A stretch of DNA of 64,000 nucleotides from assembly GCA_902469665.1 (NCBI GenBank), contig CABRDE010000060.1, positions 22,171 to 86,170 on the forward strand, read 5' to 3'. The first letter of the stretch is position 1, and every line of letters starts with the position of its first letter. This document shows, one piece after another, positions 7,162 to 62,993 of the stretch. The position numbers and the translations under genes are program-made. The notes beneath the pieces were generated by a model, which did no database searches, was not told where the DNA came from, and was given only the letters and a program-made list of their open reading frames with translations. This DNA comes from an uncultured Collinsella sp. (lineage in GTDB: Bacteria; Actinomycetota; Coriobacteriia; Coriobacteriales; Coriobacteriaceae).

Positions 7162-9120
7162 ATGGCGATTCGGGCGATGGGGCCGAGCGGACAATACGAG
7201 ACTGGATTGGATGCTGCCGGTGCGGCGCTGCCCGAACTGCTGGCGCCGTCGGGCGGACTCGACCAGATGCTTGCGGCCATCGCCGCGGGTGCCGATGCCA
7301 TCTATGCGGGGTTGGGCGGCTTTAACGCCCGCGTGAGCGCGCATGGCTTTACGGATGACGAGTTTGCGCGTGGCTGCGCCGTGGCGCATGCCCATGGCGT
7401 GCGTGTGTACGTAACGCTCAACGTGTTCGTGTTTGACGATGAGTTGTCCGACGCGGTGGCGTTGGGAGCTCATGCACTGGAGCTGGGCGCCGATGCTCTG
7501 ATTGTCGCCGATGCCGGGCTGGCTTGTGTACTGCGCACGGCGATTCCCGGGATCGAGATTCACCTGTCCACGCAGGCGGGCGCTCATAGCGAAGGCGCCG
7601 TGCGGCTTGCCGCCGATGAGCTGGGGGTCGAGCGCGTGACGACGGCACGCGAGCTGACGGTCGACGAGATTGCGGCGCTATGTGCCACGGGTGTGCCCAT
7701 CGAGGTATTCTGCCACGGTGCGATTTGCATCGGCTATTCGGGGGCGTGCGAGTTCTCTGCCCTTCGACGTGGCCGCTCTGCGATGCGCGGTGATTGCACG
7801 CAGCCGTGCCGTCTATCCTATGACTTGGTGGACGAGGCTGGGCAGAGTGTTGCCGCCGTCGAGGGAGATCGCCTGCTGTGTCCGCGCGACTATCTGGGTA
7901 TTGCGCATCTGCCCGAGCTTGTAGATGCCGGCGTGGCGTCGCTCAAGATCGAGGGGCGCATGAAGAACCCCGATTACGTATTCAACGTGGTGCGGGTGTG
8001 GCGCCGGGCACTCGATATGCTGTGCGACGGCGCGTGGGACCCCGATGCCGTGGAAGAGCTTGAGCGCGAGCTGGGAAGGTCGTTTAACCGCGGGTTTACC
8101 GACGCGTATTTGCGAGGCCGCTCGGGTGCGGAGCTTATGAGTTTTGAACGCGCGATCAACCAGGGCGTGCGTGTGGGGCGCTTGGTCGCTGTGGGCCACG
8201 AAGAGGTGACCGTTGAGCTCGACGCCGCCGTGGCGGCGGGCGATACGCTCGAGATCAGGTTTTACCCGGGCGCCGACGCTCGGCCCGATGTACCTAAACG
8301 CTGGCCGCAAGTTCCCTGCCCGGTGGATGCCGCGGCGGGGGAGCGCATCGTTGTCCATTGCAAGCGTAAGGTCGACGCGGGCTGCGAGGTATACCTGATT
8401 CGCAGCGCCGGCGTGTTGGATCAGACGGCGGCGGTGTTGGAGCGCATGCGGGCCGAGGCGGATGCGATTGCGCCCGTTGCGCGTGCCGTCGAGGTACTGC
8501 TCTTTGAGGGCGTTGCGGTGGATGGCGGTGCATCGACGGAGTTGGTGGAGTGCGCGGTTCCCACTCGCATGGTTTTTGCTTGGCAGCTGATGGATGCCGA
8601 CCCGCGCGGGGAACTCGATTTGTCCGACGCCGTCGTGGTGCTTGACGAGGTGTGCCGCGCGAGTGACGCTGACTGGACCCGCTCACTGATACAGCGTGCC
8701 GGGCGCGTCGTCTGCCGCAACCTGGGACAGGTGGCGATAGCTCGCGAACTGCGCGTCGCGTTTGACGTGGCGGCGCCGGTGTTCTGCGCGAACCGGGCAA
8801 CGCTCGCCTGGTTGCGAGGACTCGGTGCGGGGCGGGTGTACTTGCCGGCCGAGTTGCTCAGCAATGATGCGGAGCGTATTGCCGAACTGGCTGCTGAACC
8901 CGGCGTCTTGGGTCCGGTCGACGCCGACCGTCCCGAGCTTATGGTGTGCGAGCACTGCCTGCTGACCGCCGAGGGCGTCTGCGCCACCGATGCGACGGGA
9001 CAGGTCCGTTGCCGCGACTGCTTGCGTCGTCGGCAGGCACGCTATCTGGTCGAGCGTGACGGTACACGTCTGCCAGTTGCCATTGACGCATGCGGCAGGA
9101 CGAGGATTTTCCTGTCGTAG
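7162..9120 (+). CDS. Peptidase U32 family protein (collagenase-like, YhbU/RlhA family) with a long C-terminal extension
   Basis: N-terminal region is U32-like (DAIYAGLGGFNARVSAH...YVTLNVFVFDDEL...IEGRMKNPDY). AGGAG RBS lies 6 nt before ATG 7162. Confidence 0.8.
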   Translation: MAIRAMGPSGQYETGLDAAGAALPELLAPSGGLDQMLAAIAAGADAIYAGLGGFNARVSAHGFTDDEFARGCAVAHAHGVRVYVTLNVFVFDDELSDAVALGAHALELGADALIVADAGLACVLRTAIPGIEIHLSTQAGAHSEGAVRLAADELGVERVTTARELTVDEIAALCATGVPIEVFCHGAICIGYSGACEFSALRRGRSAMRGDCTQPCRLSYDLVDEAGQSVAAVEGDRLLCPRDYLGIAHLPELVDAGVASLKIEGRMKNPDYVFNVVRVWRRALDMLCDGAWDPDAVEELERELGRSFNRGFTDAYLRGRSGAELMSFERAINQGVRVGRLVAVGHEEVTVELDAAVAAGDTLEIRFYPGADARPDVPKRWPQVPCPVDAAAGERIVVHCKRKVDAGCEVYLIRSAGVLDQTAAVLERMRAEADAIAPVARAVEVLLFEGVAVDGGASTELVECAVPTRMVFAWQLMDADPRGELDLSDAVVVLDEVCRASDADWTRSLIQRAGRVVCRNLGQVAIARELRVAFDVAAPVFCANRATLAWLRGLGAGRVYLPAELLSNDAERIAELAAEPGVLGPVDADRPELMVCEHCLLTAEGVCATDATGQVRCRDCLRRRQARYLVERDGTRLPVAIDACGRTRIFLS

Positions 9121-9216
9121 GTGCCGCGTCGCGTCAGTTTGTTATCATAAGAGAGTTTATGGACTTCCAGCACCGCCGTTTTCGGCGAGGGTGCTATAGC
9201 AAAAGGAGGATACCCA

Positions 9217-10428
9217 ATGCTGTCTGTTGACGAGCAAATGCGTATCATCACCTCGGGCGCAGCGCAGATCGTCCCCGAGGCCGACCTTCGCAAGAAGCTT
9301 GAGAAGGGCGAGCCCCTCAACATCAAGCTCGGCGTCGATCCCACTAGCCCCGATCTGCACCTGGGCCATGCCGTGCCGCTGCGCAAGATGCGTCAGTTCC
9401 AGGACCTGGGCCACAACGTCACCCTCATCATCGGCAACGGTACCGCGTTGATCGGCGACCCTTCGGGCAAGAATTCCACCCGTCCGCAGCTTTCGCAGGA
9501 GCAGATCGAGGCCAATGCCGAGACCTACGTGAGCCAGGCCATGAAGATCCTGGATCCCGAGAAGACCACCATTGTGCACAACGGTGACTGGATCCTTTCG
9601 ATGGACCTGGCCGGCCTGCTGCAGGTGTGCTCCAAGTTCACCGTCGCCCGCATCCTTGAGCGCGACGACTTTACCAAGCGCTACCAGTCTCAGACGCCGA
9701 TCGCCCTGCACGAGTTCCTGTACCCCGTGATGCAGGCCTTTGACTCCGTGCAGATCAAGGCCGACGTCGAGATGGGCGGCACCGACCAGCTCTTCAACCT
9801 GCTCGCCGGCCGCGAGCTCATGGAGAAGATGGGCATGGAGCCGCAGATCGCGCTCACCATGCCGCTGCTCGAGGGCACCGACGGCGTGCGCAAGATGTCC
9901 AAGTCATACGGCAACTACATCGGCCTGACCGACGCTCCCAAGGATATGTTCGGCAAGACCATGTCCATCCCCGACGAGATGATCGGCAAGTACTATCGTC
10001 TGGCCAGCTCGCTCACCCCGGCCGAGGTCGACAAGATCGACGCCGCCCTGGCCGATGGTTCTGCCGACCCCTACGAGCTCAAGCGCGCTCTGGGCCGTGA
10101 CCTGTGCGACACCTACCACGGCGCCGGCGCCGGAGACGAGGCTCAGGCCGAGTTCGACCGCGTGTTCAAGGAGGGCCAGCTTGCCGACTTCCCCGAGAAG
10201 CATGTCGAGCTGACCGTCAACGACGAGGGCCAGATCTACCTCGCCGGCCTGCTCAAGGACTTGGGCCTTTCGGCGAGCGCCGGCCAGGCTCGTCGCGATA
10301 TCGACGGCGGTGGCGTCAAGATCAACGGCAAGGCCGTGGCTCCCAAGAGTTACAACATCGACCCCGGCGCCCTCAAGCTGGGCGACACCCTCTCCGTGGG
10401 CAAGCGCAAGGGCTTTAAGTTGGTCTAG
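9217..10428 (+). CDS. tyrS: Tyrosine--tRNA ligase
   Basis: HIGH-like (DLHLGH) and KMSKS motifs plus a C-terminal S4-like domain. AAGGAGG RBS is present. Confidence 0.95.
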   Translation: MLSVDEQMRIITSGAAQIVPEADLRKKLEKGEPLNIKLGVDPTSPDLHLGHAVPLRKMRQFQDLGHNVTLIIGNGTALIGDPSGKNSTRPQLSQEQIEANAETYVSQAMKILDPEKTTIVHNGDWILSMDLAGLLQVCSKFTVARILERDDFTKRYQSQTPIALHEFLYPVMQAFDSVQIKADVEMGGTDQLFNLLAGRELMEKMGMEPQIALTMPLLEGTDGVRKMSKSYGNYIGLTDAPKDMFGKTMSIPDEMIGKYYRLASSLTPAEVDKIDAALADGSADPYELKRALGRDLCDTYHGAGAGDEAQAEFDRVFKEGQLADFPEKHVELTVNDEGQIYLAGLLKDLGLSASAGQARRDIDGGGVKINGKAVAPKSYNIDPGALKLGDTLSVGKRKGFKLV

Positions 10429-10456: not shown

Positions 10457-10496
10457 GGGCCGCAGCCGGAACGATTCCGGCTGCGGCCCTTTTTTG
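10457..10496 (+). terminator. Intrinsic terminator after tyrS
   Basis: Hairpin GGGCCGCAGCCGGA-acga-TTCCGGCTGCGGCCC followed by T6. Confidence 0.85.
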
Positions 10497-10705
10497 GCAT
10501 TTGGGGACGTTCCTTTTGTGCCGGCACTTTGGGACACTCCTTGCCATTGGTGCAAAGTAACCTGCCCCCATTGCGCTGAGCGGCGTGTGCCGTTAAGCGG
10601 AGGGGCGTATTGTTGGCCCATCGTTTGGGCATACAATGGCTATTAGCTTGCTGCGGTGAAGGCCCGTCCGCTCCGCAGCTTTTTTCTACGGTTAAAGGAG
10701 TATGT

Positions 10706-13500: not shown

Positions 13501-13502
13501 TC

Positions 13503-13600
13503 CGGCAGCTGGGGACGTTCCCGTTCTGCCGGCAGTGGGGGACAGTCCTTGCAGCTTTTCACGAAGAGTGTCCCCAACGACTAGTCATTCAAGAACGTCC
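13503..13600. repeat. Nested inverted repeats built on GGGGAC/GTCCCC words between convergent genes
   Basis: GGGGACGTTCC...GGGGGACAGTCC...GTGTCCCCAA...GAACGTCCCC. The outer and inner pairs are reverse complements. Related words recur at 10496-10545 and 54720-54822. Confidence 0.7.
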
Positions 13601-16332: not shown

Positions 16333-16513
16333 GGGAAACCCTTTCGCGTGATTGCGGCGCGCGCGGGGCGCTCCGCTACGGTACAGTGTTCATCATTGTA
16401 CCTGTCTGGCGCAAAAAAGGCGCGCTCGCTGCGGCGTTACATGCCTGCAACATGAGCGTAAGGGGGAAGGCCGTACGGGGAAGAGCCGTCTGGCGCGTGT
16501 CCGGCTCGTGTTG

Positions 16514-16580
16514 GGTTGATTTCCGATCTCAGCCGAACACATTGAGCGGACAGGCCGTTCCCGCAGTCAGCCGAACGCCT
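16514..16580 (+). repeat. Left copy of a roughly 67 bp direct repeat, candidate attL
   Basis: GGTTGATTTCCGATCTCAGCCGAACACATTGAGCGGACAGGCCGTTCCCGCAGTCAGCCGAACGCC. It recurs at 23727-23793 with 3 mismatches. Confidence 0.75.
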
Positions 16581-16728
16581 CCGACGGCTGATTCCGAACT
16601 GGAAGCGGAGGGCATCCCCGCCCTTCGGTAGGGGATACCGCTCCGCGGCGCATGCCGCGGGCGGCGCCCCTATCGGACCACCGTGACCTCAGTTGGGATG
16701 GGCCCAGCACTGCCGCGTACTCGGTGAG

Positions 16729-17424
16729 CTAGAGCCAACTGTTCATCTTCACGTCGCGTATGGCGATATTTCGGTCGTCCGGCTCGGTGATGCCGTAGCC
16801 GAACGCCTGGAGCGTCTCGATGGACTCCTGGATCCTCTGTTGGAACATGGGACCCGGATCGACCCTCGGCCCGAGGTGCCCGCGCCAAAGGCACGGCGTG
16901 GCGCGCAGCATGTTATGGATTTTGGAGATGGGCTCGATGTCGGCGTAGACGTTGAGCGTCGCCATGGCGTCCTTGTGGCCGAGGATCGATTGGAACGCCT
17001 TGATATCGCCGCCTTGGCGGATCCACTGCGTTGCGAACGTGTGGCGAAGGCCGTGGAACGTGATCAGCTCGTCGTTGGTGCCCATGAGGCCGTTGGTCTC
17101 CGAGAACGTCTTGAACGCCCTGCGGATATAGCTTGTCGTCGCGAAGGTCGCGCCCGGCTCCGACAGGATGTAGCAGTCCCCGATCTCGACCGCCCCGGTA
17201 AGGCCGCGCAAGCGCAGCTTTCCGCAGTCGATCTCGTGGGTCTCCTTCAGGAAGGGGAGTAGGCCGACCGGGTCGATGGGGATACCCCTGGCGTCATGGG
17301 TCTTGGTGTCCTTGATGAACGAACCCATTCCCTTCGCGTACGCCACCGAGTGTCTGATCGAGATCAGGCCCGTCTCGAAATCCACATCGCACCACCGAAG
17401 GCCGCAGACCTCGCCGATTCGCAT
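16729..17424 (-). pseudogene. 5'-truncated tyrosine recombinase/integrase (catalytic domain only)
   Basis: Begins at box I (MRIGEVCGLRWCDVDF) and carries HGLRHTFAT, LGH and a catalytic Tyr (LNVYADI). The N-terminal core-binding domain is absent. The upstream gene is only 30 nt away. Confidence 0.7.
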
Positions 17425-17454
17425 CCCCGTGTGCAGGGCGAGTACGACCGCCCT

Positions 17455-17706
17455 CTAATCCTCGGCGGACCAATCGAGTCCGAACTCCTTTCGGGCATCC
17501 TCTTCGCTCATGACTTCGAGAAGGTCTCCGGGTTGGCAACGAAGGGCGAGGCATAGCTGCTCGAGTGTGTTGAAGCGAATGCCGCGAATATGCCCTTTTT
17601 TAATACGGGACAGGTTCACGGGCGTGGTTCCAATCCTTTCGGCAAGTTCGTTCGAGGAAATCTTTCGCTCGGCCATGATCTTGTCGAGGCGAACAATTAC
17701 GGGCAT
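17455..17706 (-). CDS. XRE-family HTH transcriptional regulator (YozG-like)
   Basis: 83 aa. IVRLDKIMAERKISSNELAERIGTTPVNLSRIKKGHIRGIRFNTLEQLCLALRCQPGDLL closely follows the YozG pattern. Confidence 0.85.
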   Translation of the reverse strand: MPVIVRLDKIMAERKISSNELAERIGTTPVNLSRIKKGHIRGIRFNTLEQLCLALRCQPGDLLEVMSEEDARKEFGLDWSAED

Positions 17707-17715
17707 GGCGTTTCC

Positions 17716-18228
17716 TTACGCAATCTCGTCGGAGTCGAGGTACAGCTCTCGGGCGTACAAGAAGAGCTGGGAAAGCATGAACAGGACGATGCCGAGAACC
17801 AGAGAGGTCCAATCGAATGATGAAGCGATCTCTTGGGCGCCGACGGCCCCCTCGCCGCCAAACATCGAAACGGAGGTTTTGAGTGAGCCGGCGTAGAGGC
17901 TGGTGGCAGCTTGAACAACGAAGAGAATGCCGAGCACCTTCAAGCATGTCGCAGACCCTTTCTTGAAGGGGTCTGCGCTCTTGATCGTCCACACGAGAAC
18001 GGCGCTGAGGATGGTCGTAGCGATACCGATGACGGCAGGGACCAATGTCGAGATCGCAAGGGCTGGATACGCGGGGGAGTCTGCAATTACAGGGTTGTCG
18101 AGCACTTCGATTGCTGGCTTTAAGGAGAACGCCACTTGTGCGATGGCGGTGGCGCAAAGGGTCGCAGAGGCTATCGCACATGCGATGCGGAGGGAATGAA
18201 GCCGGGGAGTGCGATTGTCGGAACTCAT
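17716..18228 (-). CDS. DUF2975-like multi-pass membrane protein, the usual partner of YozG-like regulators
   Basis: 170 aa with 4 predicted TM segments, immediately upstream of the XRE gene in the same operon. GGAGG RBS is present. Confidence 0.65.
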   Translation of the reverse strand: MSSDNRTPRLHSLRIACAIASATLCATAIAQVAFSLKPAIEVLDNPVIADSPAYPALAISTLVPAVIGIATTILSAVLVWTIKSADPFKKGSATCLKVLGILFVVQAATSLYAGSLKTSVSMFGGEGAVGAQEIASSFDWTSLVLGIVLFMLSQLFLYARELYLDSDEIA

Positions 18229-18345
18229 AATAACCTCCGAAGAATTTAAAAAACTCAGGTTACTTTTTAACAGTTTATGTTAAATTGACTTTGCCGGCAA
18301 GTAATAAGGGCCGAGCATTTTGTTCGGCCCCTCTGTTCCGACTGG

Positions 18346-20586
18346 ATGAGGTTAAGGTTGGCGATGAATATGCTCAAAATCTCGAAGGCGATCTTTAGGT
18401 CGCTTCTCTCCTCCAGGTCGCTCTGTGTTGTCGTTGTTGCGTTGATGGTTCTTTGTGCTCTGCCCGTCTTCAGGAGCGCGGCTGGCATCGACGGACGGGT
18501 CGAATACCTCGAGTCGGGAATAACCCGTGTTGAGCAGGAATTGTCAGCATCCTATGCGGATGCGCTTGTGAATGCGGGGGAGGACGGTGTCTATACCTCT
18601 TCATCAAGCATGCCCGCGCTTCTGTACCCTCTTGCCGCGGGACGTCTTATCTTGGCACCGCTCTCTCCCCTACTTCCGTTTCTGCAGATATCGGATGGAG
18701 AGTACACCTATTATGACGGATCGAAGGAGTACTTGCTATGGGTCGCAACGGCCGTTGCCGTCTCGTTCCTTGCCGCGCGTCTTAACAAACGTGAAAAGCT
18801 CATCATCCAGGCACCGATGGGCGAGCTGGGTAGACTTGTTGCATCGAGCGTATGGGCGAGTGTTTTTGCAATGCTTGCCGTCCTCGCCATCAATCTTCCA
18901 GGGATAATCGCCGCGCTTGTGAAGAATGGCCCGGGCTCGCCGTTCTATCCGATAGGCTACATTCAATATGCGACTCCGGTTATCAAACCGGCTTGGCTGG
19001 TGTTCGCGCAGACGGCCATCTTGCAATTCTTGGTGGCAGCGTTCATCTCGCTTGTCGTTCACCTTGCCGTGAAGATTGCCAATAACCCTACGCTTGGAAT
19101 CGTGTTCGTATGTGCCCTGATGGGGGTGACGATGGTTCCCGGGTATTACGGAAGATCCATCGCTTTACGTGAGTTCGCCCTGTTGAATCCCCTTACGTAT
19201 GCGAACACTGAGTTGACCGTCGGCGCCTATAGCCCGTACCCGACAACGCAGATAGTGAATCTGCCTGGACTTTGCTTCGAGCGTGGCGCGATTGCCCTCG
19301 TATGCGCAATCGGGATCGAGGTGCTGGCAATTAGCCTGCTTTGCGTTGCTGGAAAGAGCGGCTGCGCGTGCCCGATATCCCCGATTTGTCTTGAGAGAGG
19401 TTCCTTCACTGCATCGAGAACGGCAACTCGTTCGAGCGCTTGTGCCTCCGCCGTTGCATACGTAAGAACGATGGGGAAACTGCTCCTGCGTTCTCCTACC
19501 CTCGCCGTATGCGCGATTGCAATGTCGACGACGATGCTGGCCCCGGCTCTGGTCGAGATGTTTCCTGACGTTGATAACGTTTCCGCTGTTCGGTATAGGG
19601 ATGGGGAGCTCCGTTCAATAGATCGGTATCTAGAGCAGAACGCTGCGAATATGGACGTCGAGGGCAAAGCGGCCCTGGAAGACATGCGGGATGCTCTTTC
19701 GGGTTTCGTGTACGCGCCTATGCCTGCGGAGGGGTTTCGAAGCCTTGCGACGTACGAGCGCGCTCGAGGTGAGCTGGGCGCGGCAGATGCGACTCTCCTG
19801 CAATCGATCGGAATCGAGCCGGAGACTCCTTCTCGTGCGGAGGCGCGCGCCCTTCTGCTTGAGTCGATCGCGAGCTTGCCGGACCCCAAGGTTTACGAGT
19901 TAAGTACGAAGATGCCCCCATTAATCCTCCTTTCGTATCTCCAGGCAGCGCTTCCCTCCTTATTTTTGCTGTTGCCCGTGGTTGTCACATCGCTCGCGTG
20001 CACCCACCTGCAGTGTCGTTCCCTTCTGGTTCTCCAGATCCCCGCAACAGCGCATGTGCGTTTTCTGACGGCTGTTGCGCTGGCTCTCCTGCTTGGCTTG
20101 GTGCTGCTTTTGGTGTCGATGGTTCCCGCTGTCGTTGTGTCCGTGATTAAGAACGGTGCGGGTGGATCGGAGTATCCCGTCGCTCTCATTCGGGCGGGAG
20201 CTTCGACAACGTCCATGGTGGGGGAGGCGGTGTTGTGCAGTATTCCGTTGCTGGTCATGGGATACGGCGTGATTTCCGTCGTCGCTGCGTTGACAGCAGC
20301 GATTAGCCGCAACCCCGTTGTCACCGGAATGGTTTGCGCGGTTCTCTTGGTGTTGGGTTCGTTGAGCGCTCATGTTGAAAGCGTGGACATGGGCGTCGCG
20401 CTGCTGGCTCCATTCGCCTCGTTTGATCCCGCTTCCCAGGTGGGGACGATTGGGTTCCTTGGGCGCGGGACGAACGCGATGCCTTTTGGAGAGGTCGTCG
20501 GCGCATCGGGCGCTCTGCTGGTGGTCTTGGGCGCCGTATCTCCGTTGATGGTGCGCCTGAGTGTTCCAAAGATCGAAAGGGGATGA
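18346..20586 (+). CDS. Large polytopic membrane protein (ABC permease-like, duplicated TM modules), possibly a bacteriocin-associated integral membrane or immunity protein
   Basis: 746 aa with two clusters of TM helices separated by a soluble domain. Its stop overlaps the start of the downstream ATPase (ATGA coupling). Confidence 0.6.
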   Translation: MRLRLAMNMLKISKAIFRSLLSSRSLCVVVVALMVLCALPVFRSAAGIDGRVEYLESGITRVEQELSASYADALVNAGEDGVYTSSSSMPALLYPLAAGRLILAPLSPLLPFLQISDGEYTYYDGSKEYLLWVATAVAVSFLAARLNKREKLIIQAPMGELGRLVASSVWASVFAMLAVLAINLPGIIAALVKNGPGSPFYPIGYIQYATPVIKPAWLVFAQTAILQFLVAAFISLVVHLAVKIANNPTLGIVFVCALMGVTMVPGYYGRSIALREFALLNPLTYANTELTVGAYSPYPTTQIVNLPGLCFERGAIALVCAIGIEVLAISLLCVAGKSGCACPISPICLERGSFTASRTATRSSACASAVAYVRTMGKLLLRSPTLAVCAIAMSTTMLAPALVEMFPDVDNVSAVRYRDGELRSIDRYLEQNAANMDVEGKAALEDMRDALSGFVYAPMPAEGFRSLATYERARGELGAADATLLQSIGIEPETPSRAEARALLLESIASLPDPKVYELSTKMPPLILLSYLQAALPSLFLLLPVVVTSLACTHLQCRSLLVLQIPATAHVRFLTAVALALLLGLVLLLVSMVPAVVVSVIKNGAGGSEYPVALIRAGASTTSMVGEAVLCSIPLLVMGYGVISVVAALTAAISRNPVVTGMVCAVLLVLGSLSAHVESVDMGVALLAPFASFDPASQVGTIGFLGRGTNAMPFGEVVGASGALLVVLGAVSPLMVRLSVPKIERG

Positions 20587-21332
20587 TCTCGATGATTGAC
20601 CTTCAAACGCTGACGATCTCTTATGGAAAGAAGGTGCTCGTAGATTCGGTGAACGCTGAGTTTGCCCCGGGTACGGTCTACGGTCTCGTCGCTCCGAACG
20701 GGCATGGAAAGACGACGTTGCTGCGTGCGATGGCAGGTTTGCCGGGTCCTCGCGTGGACGGGAGCATCGTTCTGGATGAGGTGCAGGGTACGGGTGCGAG
20801 AGAGGTCCGTTCTATGATCTTCTATGCACCTGGTGAGGGGACGCTGCTGTATCCCGAATTGCGTGCGGAAGATCACCTCAAGATGGTTTGCGATATGTGG
20901 CCGCATGCTCGCGATATCGAAGAGATAGTGGAACAAACGCAGATAGGCGAGTTCGCGAAGATGAGGATCCGCACTCTGAGCCAGGGCATGAAGCAGCAGC
21001 TTACCCTGGCGATTGCGTATGCGACGGGCGCGCGGTACCTTCTATTAGATGAGCCCATGAACGCGCTCGACCCCAGCAGGGTGGACTTGCATTCCGAGAT
21101 TCTCAGGAAGCTGGCCGATTCTGGTACGTGCATCATCATGTCATCCCACATCTTGGATTCGGTCGATAGGCTGTGCGATGAGATTCTGTTTTTGAAGGAT
21201 GGGAGGCTCATTAGAAGCATTCCGCAAGATGATGCTGCGCCGAAGTCTCCTGGATCCCATTTCGCAAAGCCTGCCGGACGCGCCGAGGGTGCGCTAAGCA
21301 CGTATCGGCGACTCTACGAAAAGGGCGGGTAG
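20583..21332 (+). CDS. ABC transporter ATP-binding protein with atypical motifs
   Basis: Walker A APNGHGKTT, signature LSQGMKQQ, Walker B LLLDEP. Confidence 0.8.
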   Translation: MISMIDLQTLTISYGKKVLVDSVNAEFAPGTVYGLVAPNGHGKTTLLRAMAGLPGPRVDGSIVLDEVQGTGAREVRSMIFYAPGEGTLLYPELRAEDHLKMVCDMWPHARDIEEIVEQTQIGEFAKMRIRTLSQGMKQQLTLAIAYATGARYLLLDEPMNALDPSRVDLHSEILRKLADSGTCIIMSSHILDSVDRLCDEILFLKDGRLIRSIPQDDAAPKSPGSHFAKPAGRAEGALSTYRRLYEKGG

Positions 21333-21485
21333 AAATGCAAGTTAAAAATCTATGTGGCCAATGTGATACCGTTGAACCCGCATATCGATACCGCTCAGCC
21401 ATTCGCCTCGCCCCCGTCGCACGTATCTTCATCCGGTCTGTTACTTTTAATCTAACAATTCTTTGAGGAACGTAGGTGCTTCTAA

Positions 21486-23300
21486 ATGTACTGTCGACTT
21501 CTTCTCAAACTAATCCTAAGAGACAAGGCCGTATGGATTTGTACGCTCGTTCTCGCTGCAGCCTTCTCCATCCCCATTGCGTTCAATTCACCCATCTACG
21601 GGCCCTTCTTTATGAAACAGGGCATGCAGAGCTTTGTCGACGCATTCAATACGCGCGCGCCCCAGGCCAGCGGCACAGACCTATCGCCAGAGCAGCAAAA
21701 TGACGCGGAGCTTGCAAGATACGCGAACGCCGCCCTCGCCGCCCAAACCGACGCCGCCTTTCTCGATTCTGCCGAGAGCTACTACGCGCTCATGGACGAA
21801 GGCTTCCAATCCGGGTCCATCGTGGGAGACCGAGAGACCAATGACGCAGACCTCGCGTATTGCCGTGCCCTGAGCAGCTCCGGCATCACGGATATCCCGG
21901 CCTCCGCAAGCGACCTGCCATTCCTTTCCTTCCTGCCTTACGCCATTGCCACGGCGCCGTCCTTCCTTCCCTTCATCCCCTTCCTTCTCTCGTCGATACT
22001 CGTGCTCGGCGCCACAAGGCCCGGGACCCTGACGGCAAAGGCGCCCGTGCCCAAATTCCGGCGCCTTATCCAAACCGTGTTTTCGATAATTGGCGCGGGG
22101 ACCGCGATGCTCCTCGCCGGCCTTGCGCCCGGGGGTATTTACGCCTTGGCCCTAAACGGCTTCGGGCAGATCGGGTACCCGATCGCCTTCTTCCATGACG
22201 GCGCGCTCACTACCACGACCGCGGGAAACGTCTTCACGACCATACTTCTCGCGCTGCTCGCGGGTGGAACCTTGATATCCGTTTGTTCCGTCGTCCTATC
22301 GACCGCAACGAGACGCGTCTTCGCGGGCCCCCTTGCCTCCGCGTTGCTTGTCGCGGCCCCGGCATTCCCGTTATTGTCCGATTCGGCACTAGGGCATAAC
22401 GCCGCGCTCAATCTCCTGCCGCTGGCCGTGTTCTCGCCTATCGAGGCAACGGGTTACGTGGGATGCTTCCCGACGGAATTCATTGGCTCCGGTTCAGGCA
22501 GCTCATCGATGCTTGCCGTGGCCCTGGCATACGTCGCGGTCTTTTTTGCGGTCGGCGCCGTTGCGGCACGTTCCCCCAAACAGCCTGGACCCGCGAAAAA
22601 GCACCATGGGCTCGAGCTCCTGGACGCGAGCGTGGGATACGGGAGCACGACGATACTTTCAATCGGGTCGCTTTTCCTGAGCCCGGGAACGGCGGCGGGC
22701 CTCGTTGCTCCCAACGGCTCGGGGAAAACCACCCTTCTTGAAGCGCTGTCGGGCCAATTTCCCACCCGCATCCGCTCGGGAAGCCTGGCGGCAGACGGAA
22801 TCTGCCAACGCCGATCAGCCGAATTCGCAGAACTCGTCTACCTGAGCTCTTCAGGCGGCACGGATCTCTATCCCACGCTATCGGCCATCGAGCACCTTGC
22901 TTTCGTTAGGGAGGCGTGGAAATCGGCCGCCGACATCGACTCGCTCTGCGACTCCCTCGGAATCTCCCCATATCTCGACAAGCCGACCCGTAAACTCTCG
23001 ACAGGAATGAAGCAGCAGGTAAAGCTTGCCATGGCGATATCGACCGGTTGCCCGTACCTCATCCTCGATGAACCGCTGAACGGCCTCGATCCGGGAAAGC
23101 GGAAAACCTCCTGCGACGCGATGCGCAGCGAGGTGGCGCGGGGACGAAGCGTGCTCATTTCAAGCCATCTGCTCGACGACCTGGCAGACCTTACCAACTC
23201 GTTCTACTTCATCGAGGCCGGCACGCTCGTGGAAAAGATCAAGTCGTCCTCGCAGACGCTCAAGCAGGAATACCTCGATACATACGAGGGAGGCGAATGA
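21486..23300 (+). CDS. Fused ABC permease / ATP-binding protein, paralogous to the upstream ATPase
   Basis: N-terminal roughly 370 aa form a TM domain. The C-terminal ATPase has APNGSGKTT, LSTGMKQQ and LILDEP. Rare codons (CTA, AGA) occur at the 5' end. Confidence 0.7.
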   Translation: MYCRLLLKLILRDKAVWICTLVLAAAFSIPIAFNSPIYGPFFMKQGMQSFVDAFNTRAPQASGTDLSPEQQNDAELARYANAALAAQTDAAFLDSAESYYALMDEGFQSGSIVGDRETNDADLAYCRALSSSGITDIPASASDLPFLSFLPYAIATAPSFLPFIPFLLSSILVLGATRPGTLTAKAPVPKFRRLIQTVFSIIGAGTAMLLAGLAPGGIYALALNGFGQIGYPIAFFHDGALTTTTAGNVFTTILLALLAGGTLISVCSVVLSTATRRVFAGPLASALLVAAPAFPLLSDSALGHNAALNLLPLAVFSPIEATGYVGCFPTEFIGSGSGSSSMLAVALAYVAVFFAVGAVAARSPKQPGPAKKHHGLELLDASVGYGSTTILSIGSLFLSPGTAAGLVAPNGSGKTTLLEALSGQFPTRIRSGSLAADGICQRRSAEFAELVYLSSSGGTDLYPTLSAIEHLAFVREAWKSAADIDSLCDSLGISPYLDKPTRKLSTGMKQQVKLAMAISTGCPYLILDEPLNGLDPGKRKTSCDAMRSEVARGRSVLISSHLLDDLADLTNSFYFIEAGTLVEKIKSSSQTLKQEYLDTYEGGE

Positions 23301-23301
23301 C

Positions 23302-23646
23302 ATGAAACTATTTGAACAGCTGAAGTCCAATGCGTCGCGCATGGCTGTCTACGCCATCCTCGTGGCAACGGCTTTATGCGGAATCGCGGCACCCGTCTAT
23401 GCGCTCAACGGGGAGAAAGACGATGTCGAACCCGCGTACATGGCTTCGACGGTTAAAGACCGGTACAAAGCCTTCTCTGGAGACGCGTTTTACGTAGCAG
23501 AGTACGACACGACCTACCGTGAGCTTCGCTACAACAAGAGATACGAATATCTAGGCGCAAAAGTAATCAGCTATACATCGGGTTGGTACGGCCCCAACTA
23601 TGGACACATAACCCAGTTCAAGTGTAACTACCGTGTGTACAACTAA
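23302..23646 (+). CDS. Small Sec-secreted protein, Tyr/Gly/Asn-rich; candidate bacteriocin
   Basis: 114 aa. Signal peptide MKLFEQLKSNASRMAVYAILVATALCGIAAPVYA with an AxA-like cleavage site. The mature part is about 80 aa. GAGGGAGG RBS is present, and the start overlaps the stop of the permease-ATPase gene. Confidence 0.6.
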   Translation: MKLFEQLKSNASRMAVYAILVATALCGIAAPVYALNGEKDDVEPAYMASTVKDRYKAFSGDAFYVAEYDTTYRELRYNKRYEYLGAKVISYTSGWYGPNYGHITQFKCNYRVYN

Positions 23647-23661
23647 AGCAACCCGGCCGGG

Positions 23662-23697
23662 ACGAGGGGTGACGCAAAAGCGTCGCCCCTCGTTTTT
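23662..23697 (+). terminator. Intrinsic terminator after the secreted-protein gene
   Basis: Perfect hairpin ACGAGGGGTGACGC-aaaa-GCGTCGCCCCTCGT followed by T5. Confidence 0.9.
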
Positions 23698-23726
23698 AAC
23701 CATGTCAACTGAACCTAGTTCAGTTT

Positions 23727-23793
23727 GGTTGATTTCCGATCTCAGCCGAACACATTGAGCGGAAAGGCCGTTCCCGCAGTCAGTCGAACGTCC
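23727..23793 (+). repeat. Right copy of the roughly 67 bp direct repeat, candidate attR
   Basis: Matches 16514-16580 with 3 mismatches, in the same orientation. Confidence 0.75.
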
Positions 23794-24014
23794 CCGGGGC
23801 CCTTCTCAGGCCCCGGGGACGGCATTTTCCCAGTTGAAGGAACGGTGGAGATATGTTTCGATGGGTCAGATTCGTGTCGTTCCGAAAAGACCGTGAACCT
23901 TTTGTGGGACACGCGGCGCCGTGGTACCATAGCCGAGTTTGTTGTCTTGGTCGGAAACCAAGACGCCTTATGCGCTGATCGGTAACCAGCGCCTGACCAA
24001 TAAGGAGTCCTACC

Positions 24015-24440
24015 ATGAAGCAGGGTATCCATCCCCAGTATGTCGAGTGCACGGTGACGTGCTCCTGCGGCAACACCTTCAAGACGCACGCTACCGTGTC
24101 CGAGATGAAGGTCGAGCTTTGCAACGAGTGCCACCCGTTCTACACCGGCCAGCAGAAGTTCGTCGACACCGGTGGACGCGTCCAGCGCTTCGCCGACAAG
24201 TTCGGTGGCGCCGCTGCCGCCCAGCTCAAGAAGGCTGAGGAGGCCAAGGCTGCCAAGGCCGCCAAGGCTGCTGAGGCCGAGGCTGCTCGCAAGGCCGCCG
24301 CTGAGGCTAAGGCTGCCGAGAAGGCTAAGCGTGCCGCTAAGTTCGCCGAGGAGGCTGCCAAGCAGGCCGCCGAGGCTCCCGCAGAGGCTCCCGTCGAGGA
24401 GGCCGCTGCCGAGGCCGAGACCACCGAGGCCGCTGAGTAA
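24015..24440 (+). CDS. rpmE: 50S ribosomal protein L31 (Zn-ribbon type) with a roughly 75 aa Ala/Lys/Glu-rich C-terminal extension
   Basis: N-terminus [22 protein letters not shown]...[24 protein letters not shown] is canonical L31 with CxC...CxxC. An [35 protein letters not shown] tail follows. Confidence 0.9.
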
Positions 24441-24477
24441 ATAGCTCGCCGCGGAATCGCTCGCATTCATGGCATAA

Positions 24478-24517
24478 GGGCCGTGCATCCGTTTGGGTGC
24501 GCGGCCCTTTTCTTTTT
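24478..24517 (+). terminator. Intrinsic terminator after rpmE
   Basis: Hairpin GGGCCGTGCATCCG-ttt-GGGTGCGCGGCCC followed by TTTTCTTTTT. The inner GCATCCGTTTGGGTGCGC module recurs at 28868-28897. Confidence 0.8.
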
Positions 24518-24610
24518 ATTGGTGCAGGCTAACCCGTTCCCATTGCACCAGATTGGTGCGAAGGGGACGGGTTGGTTTGCACCAAATGGCAGAGTGACGG
24601 CGTTTTCCCA

Positions 24611-24651
24611 GATAAAACCTGCCAAAATAAACCAGTCCCTTTTTGGCAGGT
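24611..24651 (+). repeat. 40 bp palindromic element (GATAAAACCTGCCAAAATAAACCAGTCCCTTTTTGGCAGGT)
   Basis: 11 bp perfect inverted arms ACCTGCCAAAA / TTTTGGCAGGT. A near-identical copy lies at 36818-36858. Confidence 0.7.
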
Positions 24652-24786
24652 CGGTCGGGTCGTAGTTATTACGTGGCGGCCGAGGTCGACCGTATAGGCC
24701 GCGTCCTGTTTGGCTAAAGTACATTTATCTGTGTTTAACTCGCCCGAGGCTGCATGGCGTGGGCGATGGCCAAAAAGGAAAACCAC

Positions 24787-27593
<2,807 letters not shown>

Positions 27594-31779: not shown

Positions 31780-31882
31780 GGCAAGACGGATCTCAAGGAC
31801 TGCTTCGTCAGAACTATAAAACTGTTTCGCCAGTACTATGGAAACCCGGCAGGGGCGCTCTCTTGGAGAGCGCCCCTGTTTC

Positions 31883-31948
31883 AGTTGCGGTGAAATAGGG
31901 ACTGTTTTGCCAGCTTAAAGGCTCAACAGTCCCTATTTCACCGCAACT
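31883..31948. repeat. Family B palindromic repeat unit
   Basis: AGTTGCGGTGAAATAGGGACTGTT-N18-AACAGTCCCTATTTCACCGCAACT with perfect 24 bp arms. Copies also at 45807-45873 and 59777-59843. Confidence 0.8.
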
Positions 31949-32304
31949 TATGAAGACGCCCCTCAAGCACGGTCCCATCAGGGAAAAGGGCATATATCGG
32001 CAAAGTGCAATTCAGACCCTTCCAACTTTGTATATGCAGCACCCCAAGATAAACGCGGCGGCCCCTTAGTAGCCGCAGGCCGGGCACAGGGTTACCTCCC
32101 AAATCTTTCCGCAGGACGGAGGAGCCCCCGCCGCGCGAAGCGCGCAGCGGGGGCTCCGACACGTCCGAGGACGATTTGGAGAGTAACCCTGTGCCCGGCC
32201 GACGGGATCTCTAAGCACGCCATGCTTCTTATGTGCAGCAAAGCTAATGCTGCTAAAATACAAAGCGCTCATGTAGTTTAAACGCACGACGATAAGGAGC
32301 ACCA

Positions 32305-36817: not shown

Positions 36818-36858
36818 AGGTAAAACCTACCAAAATAAACCTGTCCCTTTTGGCAGGT
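36818..36858 (+). repeat. Second copy of the 40 bp palindromic element, 22 nt upstream of the serine recombinase gene
   Basis: AGGTAAAACCTACCAAAATAAACCTGTCCCTTTTGGCAGGT. Compare 24611-24651. A small palindrome TTACCTGCTATTTGAGAGGTAA precedes it. Confidence 0.7.
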
Positions 36859-44154: not shown

Positions 44155-44228
44155 TGGGATGTCGTCTAATGGCAGGACAGCGGATTCTGGTTCCGTCAAT
44201 GGGGGTTCGACTCCCTCCATCCCAGCCA
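44155..44228 (+). tRNA. tRNA-Gln (anticodon CTG)
   Basis: Cloverleaf with acceptor TGGGATG/CATCCCA, anticodon loop TTCTGGT, T-arm GGGGGTTCGACTCCCTC, discriminator G and an encoded CCA. Resembles bacterial tRNA-Gln. Confidence 0.85.
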
Positions 44229-44246
44229 TTGCATTTGCTACATATG

Positions 44247-44321
44247 GCCCGTTCGTCTAGCGGTTTAGGACGCCGCCCTCTCAAGGCGGAGATCACCAGT
44301 TCGAATCTGGTACGGGCTACC
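44247..44321 (+). tRNA. tRNA-Glu (anticodon CTC)
   Basis: GGCCCGTTCGTCTAGCGGTTTAGGACGCCGCCCTCTCAAGGCGGAG...GTTCGAATC...ACGGGCTACCA closely follows the tRNA-Glu pattern. Confidence 0.85.
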
Positions 44322-44330
44322 AAAATTGAA

Positions 44331-45794: not shown

Positions 45795-45806
45795 GCACTC
45801 TGTATA

Positions 45807-45873
45807 AGTTGCGGTGGAATACGGACTGTTTTGCCTGTTTGAGGGGCTATTCAGTCCCTATTTCACCGCAACT
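45807..45873. repeat. Family B palindromic repeat unit
   Basis: AGTTGCGGTGGAATACGGACTGTT...TTCAGTCCCTATTTCACCGCAACT. Confidence 0.75.
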
Positions 45874-46000
45874 GCGGGCGTCTCATCTTTCTTACTGTTC
45901 TGACACATATGTCTCAAAGGCGGCGTCCGTTATGGGTGCCGCCTTTTTTGTGGGTACATACATTCATGAGGTTCCAACCCGAGCTAGGGGAGTGATCGTT

Positions 46001-48180: not shown

Positions 48181-48266
48181 AGGATACCCATTTTAGGCTC
48201 AAAAGTTAACCAGAACTAACAAAATTGTTGTATTTGAATAGGATGGTGAAAGGGGATTGCTGAAAT

Positions 48267-48323
48267 GTCTTGATCTGTAACAACTAGGGATGGAAATTGG
48301 GTCTTACTGTTACAGATTGAGAT
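48267..48323. repeat. Family A palindromic unit
   Basis: GTCTTGATCTGTAACA-actagggatggaaattgggtcttac-TGTTACAGATTGAGAT. Confidence 0.8.
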
Positions 48324-48506
48324 GTTTGAAGCGGTGAGTTTACAGGTCGAACTTGGGCCCTTGTTGCCGTCCTTGAGGTCGGCGGTGTCCACTCGTAGGG
48401 CGTGCGTTACGCGATTGTTTCGAAACGGGCGGGAAACACAACGGGTCGGCGATGCTCCTAGTATGCCTATTCAACTGACTGTCTAAATATCTAGGGGAGG
48501 ATCGCG

Positions 48507-54719: not shown

Positions 54720-54822
54720 GGCTGTCCCCAACGGCCGGCCCAAATGGAACGTCCCCAAGTGCCGGCAGCTGGGGACGTTCCTTATGTGCCGGCATTCGGG
54801 GACACTCCTTGCGGGTTTGCGA
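54720..54822. repeat. GGGGAC-word inverted-repeat cluster
   Basis: GCTGTCCCCAAC...GGAACGTCCCCAAG...CTGGGGACGTTCC...GGGGACACTCCTTGC. The 3' half matches 10496-10545 almost exactly. Confidence 0.7.
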
Positions 54823-55814: not shown

Positions 55815-55851
55815 GGGATGTGACTGGTGCCGCCCTACAGCCCTGACTTTG

Positions 55852-55988
55852 TCTCAATCTGTAACGTTTGGCGGCTGTTTGGGCCCGTAACTGTTACAGA
55901 TTGAGACGGAAGGTTGGCGGCTGCCGAAAGATCTTGTTCTGTAACAACTAGAGGCTCAAAGACTGTCTTCCTGTTACAGATCAAGACA
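55852..55988. repeat. Two tandem Family A palindromic units
   Basis: GTCTCAATCTGTAACG...CTGTTACAGATTGAGAC and ATCTTGTTCTGTAACAA...CTGTTACAGATCAAGAC. Confidence 0.8.
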
Positions 55989-56010
55989 TTTGTCAGCGGA
56001 GGCAACGGTG

Positions 56011-57084: not shown

Positions 57085-57092
57085 GAGGTTTC

Positions 57093-57230
57093 GTCTCGAT
57101 CTGTAACGTTTAGAGGTCGTTTGAGCTCGTAATTGTTACAGATCGAGACAAGCCGGTGAAACGTCGACCGAATGTCCCGATCTGTAACATCAAGGGGCCC
57201 AATAACCCTGTACCTGTTACAGATCGAGAC
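57093..57230. repeat. Two tandem Family A palindromic units
   Basis: GTCTCGATCTGTAACG...TTGTTACAGATCGAGAC and GTCCCGATCTGTAACA...CTGTTACAGATCGAGAC. Confidence 0.8.
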
Positions 57231-57379
57231 ATTTCCCTGGTGTCGCTGGGGTGGGACTGCAGCGTATTCCGTCCCCCACATCCCCTCTTCCCTCCGTTAA
57301 CCGATATGTCTGTGGCAATCGGGCTACACTGGATAATAATGGACAGATGTTCAAGTTTTCTGAGGGGGAGGAGCTCGAT

Positions 57380-59735: not shown

Positions 59736-59776
59736 GGCGGGTCCTCGTTTCTGGTCGATCTTCCGGATGTCCCCGT

Positions 59777-59843
59777 CAGTTGCGGTGAAATACGGACCGT
59801 TTAAAGGCCTAGGGCGGCACAACAGTCCGTATTTCACCGCAAC
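59777..59843. repeat. Family B palindromic repeat unit between copZ and csoR
   Basis: AGTTGCGGTGAAATACGGACCGTT...AACAGTCCGTATTTCACCGCAACT. Confidence 0.75.
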
Positions 59844-59871
59844 TTCTGAGGGGGGGGGCAGGTGGCGCCTG

Positions 59872-62657: not shown

Positions 62658-62733
62658 AGTGGAGATTGAAATGTATGACATTTCGTTATTGGTTGAGCTG
62701 ATGGCCAGGTCGGCGGGCCGTAGCCGGTCTAAT

Positions 62734-62951
62734 GTCTCAATCTGTAACAACTAGACCCGATTTTGTCGAATAACTGTTACAGATCGAGACAGACCGTCCG
62801 CGGTCAACTCAAATGTCTCGATCTGTAACATCTAGAGAGGTTTTTGACCCCTTACTGTTACAGATTGAGATGTTGTCTCGCGGGGTTGGGGTTTGTCTCG
62901 ATCTGTAACATCTAGACCTGTATCTGCCGAGCTAGTGTTACAGATCGAGAC
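62734..62951. repeat. Three tandem Family A palindromic units plus one partial arm
   Basis: Units at 62734-62790, 62815-62871 and 62895-62951, all with the GTCTCGATCTGTAACA / TGTTACAGATCGAGAC termini. Confidence 0.85.
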
Positions 62952-62993
62952 AATTGCCGGGGAGGGGTCCCGTTGCGGCAAGACGCCCGCCGC

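What the first reader, a model, noticed from the sequence alone, without database searches (positions are those of the whole stretch)
16514..23793. A 7.3 kb block flanked by 67 bp direct repeats with a decayed integrase looks like a genomic island
Two same-orientation copies of GGTTGATTTCCGATCTCAGCCGAACACATTGAGCGGA...CCGTTCCCGCAGTCAG.CGAACG sit at 16514-16580 and 23727-23793 with 3 mismatches. A 5'-truncated tyrosine recombinase (16729-17424) abuts the left copy. The interior has AT-rich stretches (for example 18230-18340 and 21330-21480) and rare codons (CTA, AGA, TTA). Both flanks are core loci: the ACT/citrate synthase operon and rpmE-secA. That pattern fits attL/attR of an integrated element that has since lost a functional integrase. 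Each repeat copy is followed by a different GC-rich hairpin.
Basis: partly seen in the sequence, partly recalled or inferred. Interest (0 to 1): 0.7.

Follow-up and report, generated by a model that had tools for sequence, protein, structure and literature searches.

The report
Island bounded by IS30 insertion-sequence remnants
The two 67 bp repeats are leftover ends of a common Collinsella jumping gene (an IS30-family insertion sequence), not integrase attachment sites; the 7.3 kb block between them is a real but ordinary strain-variable island.

Summary
Two same-orientation copies sit at 16514-16580 and 23727-23793, with a 5'-truncated tyrosine recombinase gene, low GC and rare codons between them.

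The attL/attR interpretation does not hold. The repeat is one terminus of a ~1.64 kb IS30-family insertion sequence that is multi-copy in Collinsella. A 24-mer from the repeat hit more than 120 genome stretches. These had 63 distinct left flanks, and many contigs break inside the repeat. Complete copies carry a 450 aa IS30-family transposase, imperfect terminal inverted repeats and 13-14 bp target duplications.

Window copy 1 is IS positions 1-74. Copy 2 is positions 1-139, including the IS's own hairpin and T-run.

A strain with rpmE next to the ACT gene has no repeat copy at all. Sister genomes keep the other IS end against the rpmE flank. The whole block is bracketed by a 14 bp near-identical duplication. 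This fits a decayed composite transposon, or another IS-mediated assembly.

Part of the cargo (604 aa ABC protein plus 114 aa gene) is 95-96% identical to two C. aerofaciens plasmids. Another strain has a restriction-modification/defence-like island at the same site.

This is ordinary mobile-element biology and of low interest.

The parts
16500..16513 (.). Left copy of the 14 bp flanking direct duplication (TCCGGCTCGTGTTG). It abuts the outer IS terminus.
   Evidence: It matches the 14-mer that follows the opposite IS end in sister genomes at 11/14 (L003, L138, L141). It matches the 14-mer at the rpmE side of L142 at 13/14. The length equals the perfect 13-14 bp duplications of complete IS copies.
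16514..16588 (+). Copy 1: remnant of the IS30-family IS, positions 1-74 (the terminus downstream of the transposase stop, containing the terminal inverted repeat).
   Evidence: 89% identity to IS 1-74. (sharp boundary at GGTTGATTTCC with many different left flanks elsewhere). (inverted-repeat alignment).
16589..16728 (.). GC-rich structured spacer between copy 1 and the integrase fragment. It is not IS-derived.
   Evidence: no IS match beyond 16588. (fold z = -2.75 on the + strand).
16729..17424 (-). 5'-truncated tyrosine recombinase (catalytic domain only). Residual similarity continues upstream past an in-frame stop.
   Evidence: It is truncated in all related loci (179-235 aa). Only 26-36% identical to phage and plasmid integrases.
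17455..17706 (-). Small HTH_26 (Cro/C1-type) regulator.
   Evidence: PF13443, E = 4.9e-21.
17716..18228 (-). 170 aa protein with four hydrophobic, transmembrane-like segments and weak DUF2975 similarity. It is paired with the HTH gene.
   Evidence: 21.3 bits, below the cutoff. (hydropathy).
18346..20586 (+). 746 aa polytopic membrane protein. It is a putative permease partner of the downstream ABC ATPase; its stop overlaps that gene's start.
   Evidence: about 12 hydrophobic segments. No Pfam, NCBIfam or PADLOC hit.
20583..21332 (+). ABC transporter ATP-binding protein (249 aa).
   Evidence: PF00005. (best similarity to lantibiotic-protection and DrrA/NodI-type ATPases, all below the curated cutoffs).
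21347..23723 (+). Module shared with Collinsella plasmids. It holds a 604 aa fused membrane domain + ABC ATPase (21486-23300), a 114 aa protein with one N-terminal hydrophobic segment (23302-23646), a terminator-like hairpin (23660-23700) and a small palindrome (23707-23725).
   Evidence: 95-96% identity to NZ_CP084005.1 and NZ_OY725718.1; homology ends 3 nt before copy 2..
23727..23867 (+). Copy 2: remnant of the same IS, positions 1-139. It includes the IS-internal hairpin (23788-23820) and T-run (23824-23827). The rest of the IS was deleted at a GGGYC microhomology.
   Evidence: 86.5% identity to IS 1-139. (hairpin + T-run conserved in IS copies, 2 compensatory pairs). (the junction compared with L003-type genomes, which keep IS 1596-1640).
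23868..23879 (.). Degenerate remnant of the right copy of the 14 bp flanking duplication (AGATTCGTGTCG).
   Evidence: by comparison with L003, L138, L141 and L142.

Best explanation
The two repeats are remnants of the same end of an IS30-family insertion sequence (~1.64 kb, 450 aa DDE transposase) that is multi-copy in Collinsella genomes.

The 7.3 kb block is a mosaic accessory island whose outer limits are the outer termini of two same-orientation IS copies. It was most likely delivered or assembled by the IS. One route is transposition of IS-cargo-IS as a composite transposon. The other is recombination of an IS-bearing circular molecule with an IS already resident upstream of rpmE. Either route leaves one 14 bp target duplication around the whole unit.

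Both IS copies then decayed by internal deletions. The left copy keeps 74 nt. The right copy keeps 139 nt in this lineage, and only its last ~45 nt in sister lineages. The block is now immobile.

The tyrosine-recombinase fragment is cargo or debris, not the engine.

The cargo is an HTH/membrane-protein pair plus two ABC-type transporter units and a small anchored protein. This is probably an export or immunity system; that function is inferred only.

Shown: the IS identity of the repeats, their dispersal, the absence of any repeat at an empty site, the flanking duplication, and the plasmid-borne copy of part of the cargo. Inferred: single-unit transposition and the order of the deletions.
For: 1. 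Dispersal. Of the 125 hit instances classified, 65 lie outside the ACT/rpmE context, with 63 distinct left flanks. 32 of those 65 run off a contig end within the repeat. Several single assemblies carry extra unlinked copies.

2. A full element exists. L072, L055, L108 and L110 share 94-98% identity over ~1640 bp, with both flanks diverging. The ORF passes NCBIfam IS30-family NF033563 (102.9 bits, cutoff 80) and has HTH_38 plus a weak rve hit. RefSeq annotates the same element as an IS30 family transposase, with 4 places in NZ_OY725717.1.

3. Transposon hallmarks. The terminal inverted repeats match at 20/30 positions (0 of 10000 shuffles reach this). Perfect target duplications are present: 14 bp in L072 and 13 bp in L144.

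4. Window copies. They match IS 1-74 and IS 1-139.

5. Empty site. L010 has no repeat copy.

6. Other IS end. L003, L138 and L141 carry it (IS 1596-1640) abutting the rpmE flank.

7. Flanking duplication. The 14-mers flanking the whole block match at 11/14, and 13/14 against L142. The right IS has no target duplication of its own.

8. IS-end rearrangement. In L090 a deletion ends exactly at the IS terminus.

9. Cargo. Window 21347-23723 is 95-96% identical to two C. aerofaciens plasmids. One comes from the strain whose chromosome has the empty site.
Against: - No genome examined has an intact IS at either end of the block. L125 only hints at one.
- The same IS-cargo-IS unit was not found at a second site. 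The two plasmids carrying part of the cargo have no copy of the IS.
- The flanking duplication is imperfect (11/14). The same G/A difference between left and right copies is shared with the unrelated island in L008/L142. The duplication may therefore predate both islands, or be a pre-existing local repeat (GCTCGTGT occurs twice in L142's right flank).
- Two of four complete IS copies (L055, L108) show no target duplication.
- The only empty site seen (L010) is about 8% diverged, and its spacer aligns poorly.
- A pattern scan for a closely related empty site found nothing.
Confidence: 0.72

Rival explanations
1. First reader's model. The repeats are attL/attR made by site-specific integration of an island by its tyrosine recombinase, which later decayed.
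For: There are direct repeats at both ends, an integrase fragment 148 bp inside the left repeat, atypical composition, and variable presence between core genes.
Against: - The repeat is the terminus of a dispersed IS with 63 or more other flanks.
- The empty site has no copy.
- There is no tRNA, tmRNA or known RNA at the repeat.
- Copy 2 extends to 139 nt of IS sequence, and sister genomes hold the opposite IS end.
- The integrase is truncated in every related locus examined.
Confidence: 0.03
2. Two independent insertions of the IS happened to land at the two edges of a pre-existing island. The IS played no role in bringing the block.
For: The IS is abundant and appears to favour hairpins and palindromes (target in L144; the palindrome next to copy 2). 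IS30-type elements have hot-spot and IR-targeted insertion (PMC9333248).
Against: - The block's variable boundaries coincide exactly with the outer IS termini.
- The sequence left of copy 2 (ACCTAGTTCAGTTT) does not match the sequence right of the retained opposite end. That flank instead matches the flank left of copy 1.
- Both remnants share a variant (GCAGTCAG) not seen in other copies.
Confidence: 0.15
3. The ACT-rpmE spacer is a recombination hot spot. Alternative islands are exchanged by homologous recombination through conserved flanks. The 14 bp 'duplication' is an older local repeat, and the IS remnants are passengers.
For: A different 10.9 kb restriction-modification/defence-like island sits between the same left (CCGGCTCG) and right (CCAGCTCGTGTTG) motifs in L008/L142. 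Several deletion variants exist.
Against: It does not explain why the block begins and ends precisely with IS termini. It also does not explain why the duplication has the same 13-14 bp length as bona fide duplications of this IS. It is compatible with the best explanation as a later process.
Confidence: 0.1

Closest known systems
IS30 of E. coli and typical IS30-family elements (e.g. IS1655)
   Same: A single DDE transposase with an N-terminal HTH_38-type domain and an rve-like core, passing the NCBIfam IS30-family model. Imperfect terminal inverted repeats of about 26-30 bp. Multi-copy, with deletions ending at the IS terminus and IS-bounded structures. IS30 biology is taken from PMC9333248.
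   Different: The element is longer (1.64 kb, 450 aa transposase). It has about 230 nt of non-coding DNA with a hairpin/T-run at one end. Its target duplications are 13-14 bp instead of the 2 bp described for IS30.
IS1630 of Mycoplasma fermentans (IS30-type element that duplicates long, variable inverted-repeat targets)
   Same: An IS30-type element with unusually long target duplications. At least one target here (L144) is a hairpin-forming inverted repeat. The IS1630 behaviour is known to me only from the title cited in PMC7648426 and from memory.
   Different: Here the duplication length looks fixed at 13-14 bp in the two clean cases. A preference for inverted repeats was not tested systematically.
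Composite (compound) transposons and IS26-type pseudo-compound transposons
   Same: Cargo is bracketed by two same-orientation copies of one IS, with a single target duplication around the whole unit.
   Different: Both IS copies are now stumps, with no transposase at the locus. The mobility of the unit as a whole is inferred, not observed. The unit was not seen at a second site.
tRNA/tmRNA-targeting genomic islands with attL/attR and an integrase
   Same: Direct repeats at the ends, an integrase-like gene near one end, low GC, strain-variable.
   Different: No RNA gene at the target. The repeat is absent from the empty site. The repeat is dispersed as an IS end. The integrase is truncated everywhere.

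Membership tests
IS30-family insertion sequence (parent element of the repeat) | Encodes a DDE transposase that matches the curated IS30-family profile | tested here: met
   NF033563: 102.9 bits against a cutoff of 80. HTH_38 E = 3.3e-11, with a weak rve hit. RefSeq product name 'IS30 family transposase'.
IS30-family insertion sequence (parent element of the repeat) | Imperfect terminal inverted repeats at both ends | tested here: met
   20/30 ungapped matches between the first 30 nt and the reverse complement of the last 30 nt; 0 of 10000 shuffles reach this.
IS30-family insertion sequence (parent element of the repeat) | Discrete unit found at many unrelated sites, with sharp boundaries at both ends | tested here: met
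   63 distinct left flanks. Both flanks diverge in L072, L055, L108, L110 and L144. Contigs break inside the repeat.
IS30-family insertion sequence (parent element of the repeat) | Target-site duplication flanking complete copies (2-3 bp in typical members, longer in IS1630) | tested here: inconclusive
   Perfect duplications of 14 bp (L072) and 13 bp (L144) were found, but none in L055 or L108. The length is atypical for the family.
Integrase-mediated genomic island (attL/attR) | The empty site retains exactly one copy of the repeat (attB) | tested here: not met
   L010 (CP084004.1) has rpmE next to ACT with no copy.
Integrase-mediated genomic island (attL/attR) | The repeat is confined to island ends, or is part of the target gene (tRNA, tmRNA, or a gene's 3' end) | tested here: not met
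   It is a dispersed IS terminus. No tRNA, tmRNA or Rfam hit at the repeats.
Integrase-mediated genomic island (attL/attR) | An intact cognate integrase in at least some carriers | tested here: not met
   Wherever the gene is present in the related loci, it is 179-235 aa and lacks the N-terminal domain.
Composite transposon | Two copies of the same IS bracket the cargo | tested here: met
   Remnants of IS 1-74 and IS 1-139 lie in the same orientation. The opposite end of the right IS is retained in L003, L138 and L141.
Composite transposon | One target duplication flanks the whole unit, with none around the individual IS copies | tested here: met
   The 14-mers match at 11/14 to 13/14. The flanks of the right IS do not match each other. 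Caveat: the duplication is imperfect, and its G/A difference is shared with the L142 island.
Composite transposon | The same IS-cargo-IS unit is seen at another location, or with intact IS copies | tested here: inconclusive
   Only the 2.4 kb ABC604 + 114 aa module was found elsewhere, on two plasmids without the IS. L125 hints at a canonical IS end after the 114 aa gene.

The most novel reading that the evidence does not exclude
This Collinsella IS30-family element could be a distinct subgroup that makes fixed 13-14 bp target duplications and prefers hairpin or palindromic targets. It could also have turned the ACT-rpmE spacer into a cassette-exchange hot spot. There, alternative islands (an ABC-transporter island or a restriction-modification/defence-like island) would be swapped between the same 14 bp duplicated target copies, with plasmids as the reservoir of modules.
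Probability: 0.2. Interest if true: 0.4.

Novelty: new member of a known kind. Interest (0 to 1): 0.2.

Why it matters
The main value is as a correction. A direct repeat next to an integrase fragment looks like attL/attR, but here it is IS debris. Annotating it as an integrative island with att sites would be wrong.

It documents an abundant IS30-family element in Collinsella, a very common human-gut genus. The element breaks short-read assemblies and has unusually long target duplications for its family. It also brackets a plasmid-related ABC-transporter island next to rpmE-secA.

This is useful for mobile-element annotation and strain-variation studies of Collinsella. It does not open a new mechanism.

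Tried and rejected
- **tRNA/tmRNA target.** ARAGORN finds only tRNA-Gln and tRNA-Glu at 44155-44322.
- **Known RNA family at the repeats.** Rfam at gathering and at E <= 1 finds only the L31 leader upstream of rpmE. I briefly considered a small-RNA gene (the repeat plus hairpin plus T-run). I dropped it when the conserved sequence was seen to continue into a transposase gene.
- **MITE or attC-like cassette site.** Rejected because all non-island copies share the same 1.64 kb right-hand sequence.
- **Closely related empty site.** The pattern GCGCGTGTCCGGCTCG-N(0-30)-AAAGACCGTGAACCTTTTGTGGGAC in JGI metagenomes gave 0 hits.
- **Viral contigs.** There were 3 hits, which only show the IS end inside predicted viral contigs.
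- **Defence-system models on the cargo.** PADLOC gave only generic ABC/ATPase similarities.
- **Origin of the integrase.** Only 26-36% identical phage and plasmid integrases were found, which is uninformative.
- **Exact look-up of the 114 aa protein.** It returned the same locus, or contigs that end in the IS.
- **One script timed out** and was replaced.


Full report
**1.

The two copies are real. They span 16510-16583 and 23723-23796 (74 nt, 93% identity). Their first 37 nt are identical and occur only twice in the window, with none expected by chance.

The genes between the copies are:

| Coordinates | Strand | Product |
|---|---|---|
| 16729-17424 | - | Tyrosine-recombinase catalytic domain; starts at Pfam position 36, with an in-frame stop upstream |
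| 17455-17706 | - | HTH_26 regulator |
| 17716-18228 | - | Membrane protein, 4 transmembrane-like segments |
| 18346-20586 | + | 746 aa polytopic membrane protein |
| 20583-21332 | + | ABC ATPase |
| 21486-23300 | + | 604 aa fused membrane + ABC ATPase protein |
| 23302-23646 | + | 114 aa protein with one N-terminal hydrophobic segment |

The flanks are ACT/citrate synthase on the left and rpmE-secA-prfB on the right.

The block is compositionally atypical:

| Measure | Block | Flanks or core genes |
|---|---|---|
| GC | 57.8% | 61-63% |
| GC3 | 0.69 | 0.81 |
| Rare codons per 1000 | 33.7 | 6.8 |

**2. Strain comparison: a variable island, but no repeat at the empty site**

I looked up the exact ACT and L31 proteins in public assemblies. 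The window is from the Collinsella aerofaciens group. The site takes several forms:

- **Full block.** Most assemblies carry it.
- **Empty site.** C. aerofaciens NBRC 114504 (CP084004.1, L010) has rpmE directly next to ACT.
- **Different island.** One assembly (L008/L142) has a 10.9 kb island of a methyltransferase, a UvrD-like helicase, a PD-(D/E)XK protein and other genes.
- **Internal deletions.** L002 and L140 lack 16559-21112. L003, L005, L138 and L141 lack 23292-23871.

The empty site contains no copy of the repeat. An attB model predicts exactly one.

**3. The repeat is the end of an insertion sequence**

I scanned one genome per species with a 24-mer from the repeat.

- Of the 125 hit instances classified, 65 lie outside the ACT/rpmE context.
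- They have 63 distinct left flanks, and every one has a sharp boundary at GGTTGATTTCC.
- 32 of the 65 run off a contig end within the repeat, typically about 54 nt into it. This is the usual signature of a multi-copy repeat in a k = 55 assembly.
- Several assemblies carry extra unlinked copies.

To the right, all of these copies continue identically for ~1640 bp, and then the flanks diverge again. This unit has the features of an IS30-family element:

- **Transposase.** It encodes a 450 aa protein with HTH_38 and a weak rve hit. The protein passes the NCBIfam IS30-family model at 102.9 bits, against a cutoff of 80.
- **Annotation.** RefSeq annotates the same element as an IS30 family transposase in NZ_OY725717.1, which has 4 places.
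- **Inverted repeats.** The ends are imperfect inverted repeats, with 20/30 matches; 0 of 10000 shuffles reach this.
- **Target duplications.** Complete copies show perfect duplications: GCCCACGCGCGAAC in L072 and GGGACTCTCTGGG in L144.

The window copies are stumps of this element:

- Copy 1 is IS positions 1-74.
- Copy 2 is IS positions 1-139.

The hairpin and T-run after copy 2 are part of the IS. They are conserved among copies, with two compensatory pairs. The hairpin after copy 1 is unrelated sequence.

**4. How the block relates to the IS**

- **Outer limits.** The left limit of the variable region is the IS terminus at 16514. The L008 junction is at 16508.
- **The other IS end.** On the right, L003-type genomes retain the opposite terminus (IS 1596-1640) directly against the rpmE flank.
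- **Ancestral state.** The ancestor therefore had a complete IS upstream of rpmE. The window lineage deleted IS ~140 to the end at a GGGYC microhomology. The L003 lineage deleted from the ABC stop codon to IS ~1596 at a GAATG microhomology.
- **Flanking duplication.** The 14-mer left of copy 1 is TCCGGCTCGTGTTG. It matches the 14-mer right of the retained opposite end at 11/14 in three genomes. It matches the corresponding 14-mer in L142 at 13/14.
- **No private duplication.** The right IS has no duplication of its own.
- **Deletion ending at the IS terminus.** In L090 a deletion ends exactly at the IS terminus.
- **Shared variant.** Both stumps share a variant (GCAGTCAG) not seen in other copies.

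Together these fit an IS-cargo-IS unit inserted or assembled by the IS, which then decayed. IS30 is known to form dimers, cointegrates and deletions, and to target hot spots or its own ends (PMC9333248). Long target duplications have a precedent in the IS30-type element IS1630, which I know only from the title cited in PMC7648426 and from memory.

**5. Cargo origin**

Window 21347-23723 covers the promoter region, the 604 aa ABC gene, the 114 aa gene and a terminator. It is 95-96% identical to two C. aerofaciens plasmids, NZ_CP084005.1 and NZ_OY725718.1. The first comes from NBRC 114504, the strain whose chromosome has the empty site. Homology ends 3 nt before copy 2, and the plasmids carry no copy of the IS.

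The island is therefore a mosaic of mobile modules. The function of the cargo is inferred only, as an ABC-type exporter or immunity system with an HTH/membrane-protein pair. No curated family cutoff is passed beyond generic ABC domains.

**6. Caveats**

- No intact flanking IS and no second location of the whole unit were found.
- The flanking duplication is imperfect. Its G/A difference is shared with the unrelated L008/L142 island. The duplication may therefore predate both islands, with later replacement of the interior.
- The one empty site is about 8% diverged.
- A scan for a closer empty site found nothing.
- I put about 0.9 on 'the repeats are IS30-family ends, not att sites'. I put about 0.55 on single-unit composite transposition specifically.

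**7. Verdict**

| Question | Verdict |
|---|---|
| Observation | Confirmed |
| 'Genomic island' | Supported |

This is a decayed IS30-family-bounded accessory island. It is a new member of a known kind and of low general interest.

Noticed in passing
window 23972-24007 (a weaker second match at 23944-23964): Rfam L31-Coriobacteria ribosomal-protein leader (RF03128, 35.1 bits against a gathering score of 33) lies immediately upstream of rpmE. The IS stump and its terminator sit about 150 nt upstream of it.
   Followed up: partly
L008:1-9957 and L142:1-9850 (ENA ERZ28753441 contig_71): An alternative 10.9 kb island occupies the same ACT-rpmE site. It encodes a GajB/UvrD-like helicase, a Cas4-like PD-(D/E)XK protein, a type II/III-like methyltransferase, a 904 aa protein with a weak TnsA-like N-terminal domain, and unknowns. 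It looks like a restriction-modification/defence island and lies between the same 14-mer copies.
   Followed up: partly
L145 (NZ_CP084005.1) 24204-26578; L146 (NZ_OY725718.1) 7800-10174: Two 27-30 kb C. aerofaciens plasmids (ParA in both, DnaB in one, a relaxase in the other) carry the ABC604 + 114 aa module at 95-96% identity. One is from the strain whose chromosome lacks the island.
   Followed up: yes
window 48258-48328, 55850-55992, 57092-57243, 62725-62956: A family of ~71-80 nt palindromic units (TGTCTCGATCTGTAACA...TGTTACAGATCGAGACA). Some are in tandem at an 80-81 nt spacing. It may be a REP/MITE-like dispersed repeat (families D1/D2).
   Followed up: no
window 31876-31953, 45800-45878, 59771-59849: Another dispersed inverted-repeat unit (GTTGCGGTGAAATAGGGACTG ... 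CAGTCCCTATTTCACCGCAAC). In L136 and L142 a 152 aa Y1_Tnp (IS200/IS605- or RAYT-type) gene sits at the position corresponding to window ~31886. The repeats may therefore be the ends or REP partners of that transposase.
   Followed up: partly
window 10494-10550, 13502-13558, 54762-54818; also 24610-24643 and 36818-36851: Two further short dispersed intergenic repeat families (D5 and D11). The D11 sequence also appears as the left flank of IS copies in other genomes (L016, L028).
   Followed up: no
window 24015-24440: The L31 (rpmE) ORF is 141 aa. The Pfam L31 domain covers residues 1-64 only. The rest is an Ala/Glu/Lys-rich low-complexity C-terminal extension, conserved in length in all related loci.
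   Followed up: no
L072:4420-4457 (inside the full IS, at the transposase start): A perfect 19 + 19 bp palindrome (TCCCACATTCATCCGCACA/TGTGCGGATGAATGTGGGA) overlaps the transposase start codon near the IS end. It could be a translational or transposase-binding control element.
   Followed up: no
L007:7611-8027, relative to window 18305/18306: One assembly has a ~417 bp insertion with a 121 aa ORF between the DUF2975-like gene and the 746 aa gene.
   Followed up: no
L099 and L105: In one genome another IS copy sits just downstream of prfB, about 5 kb right of copy 2. In another, a 5.9 kb contig is bounded at both ends by outward-facing IS termini. Both show how the IS fragments assemblies.
   Followed up: no
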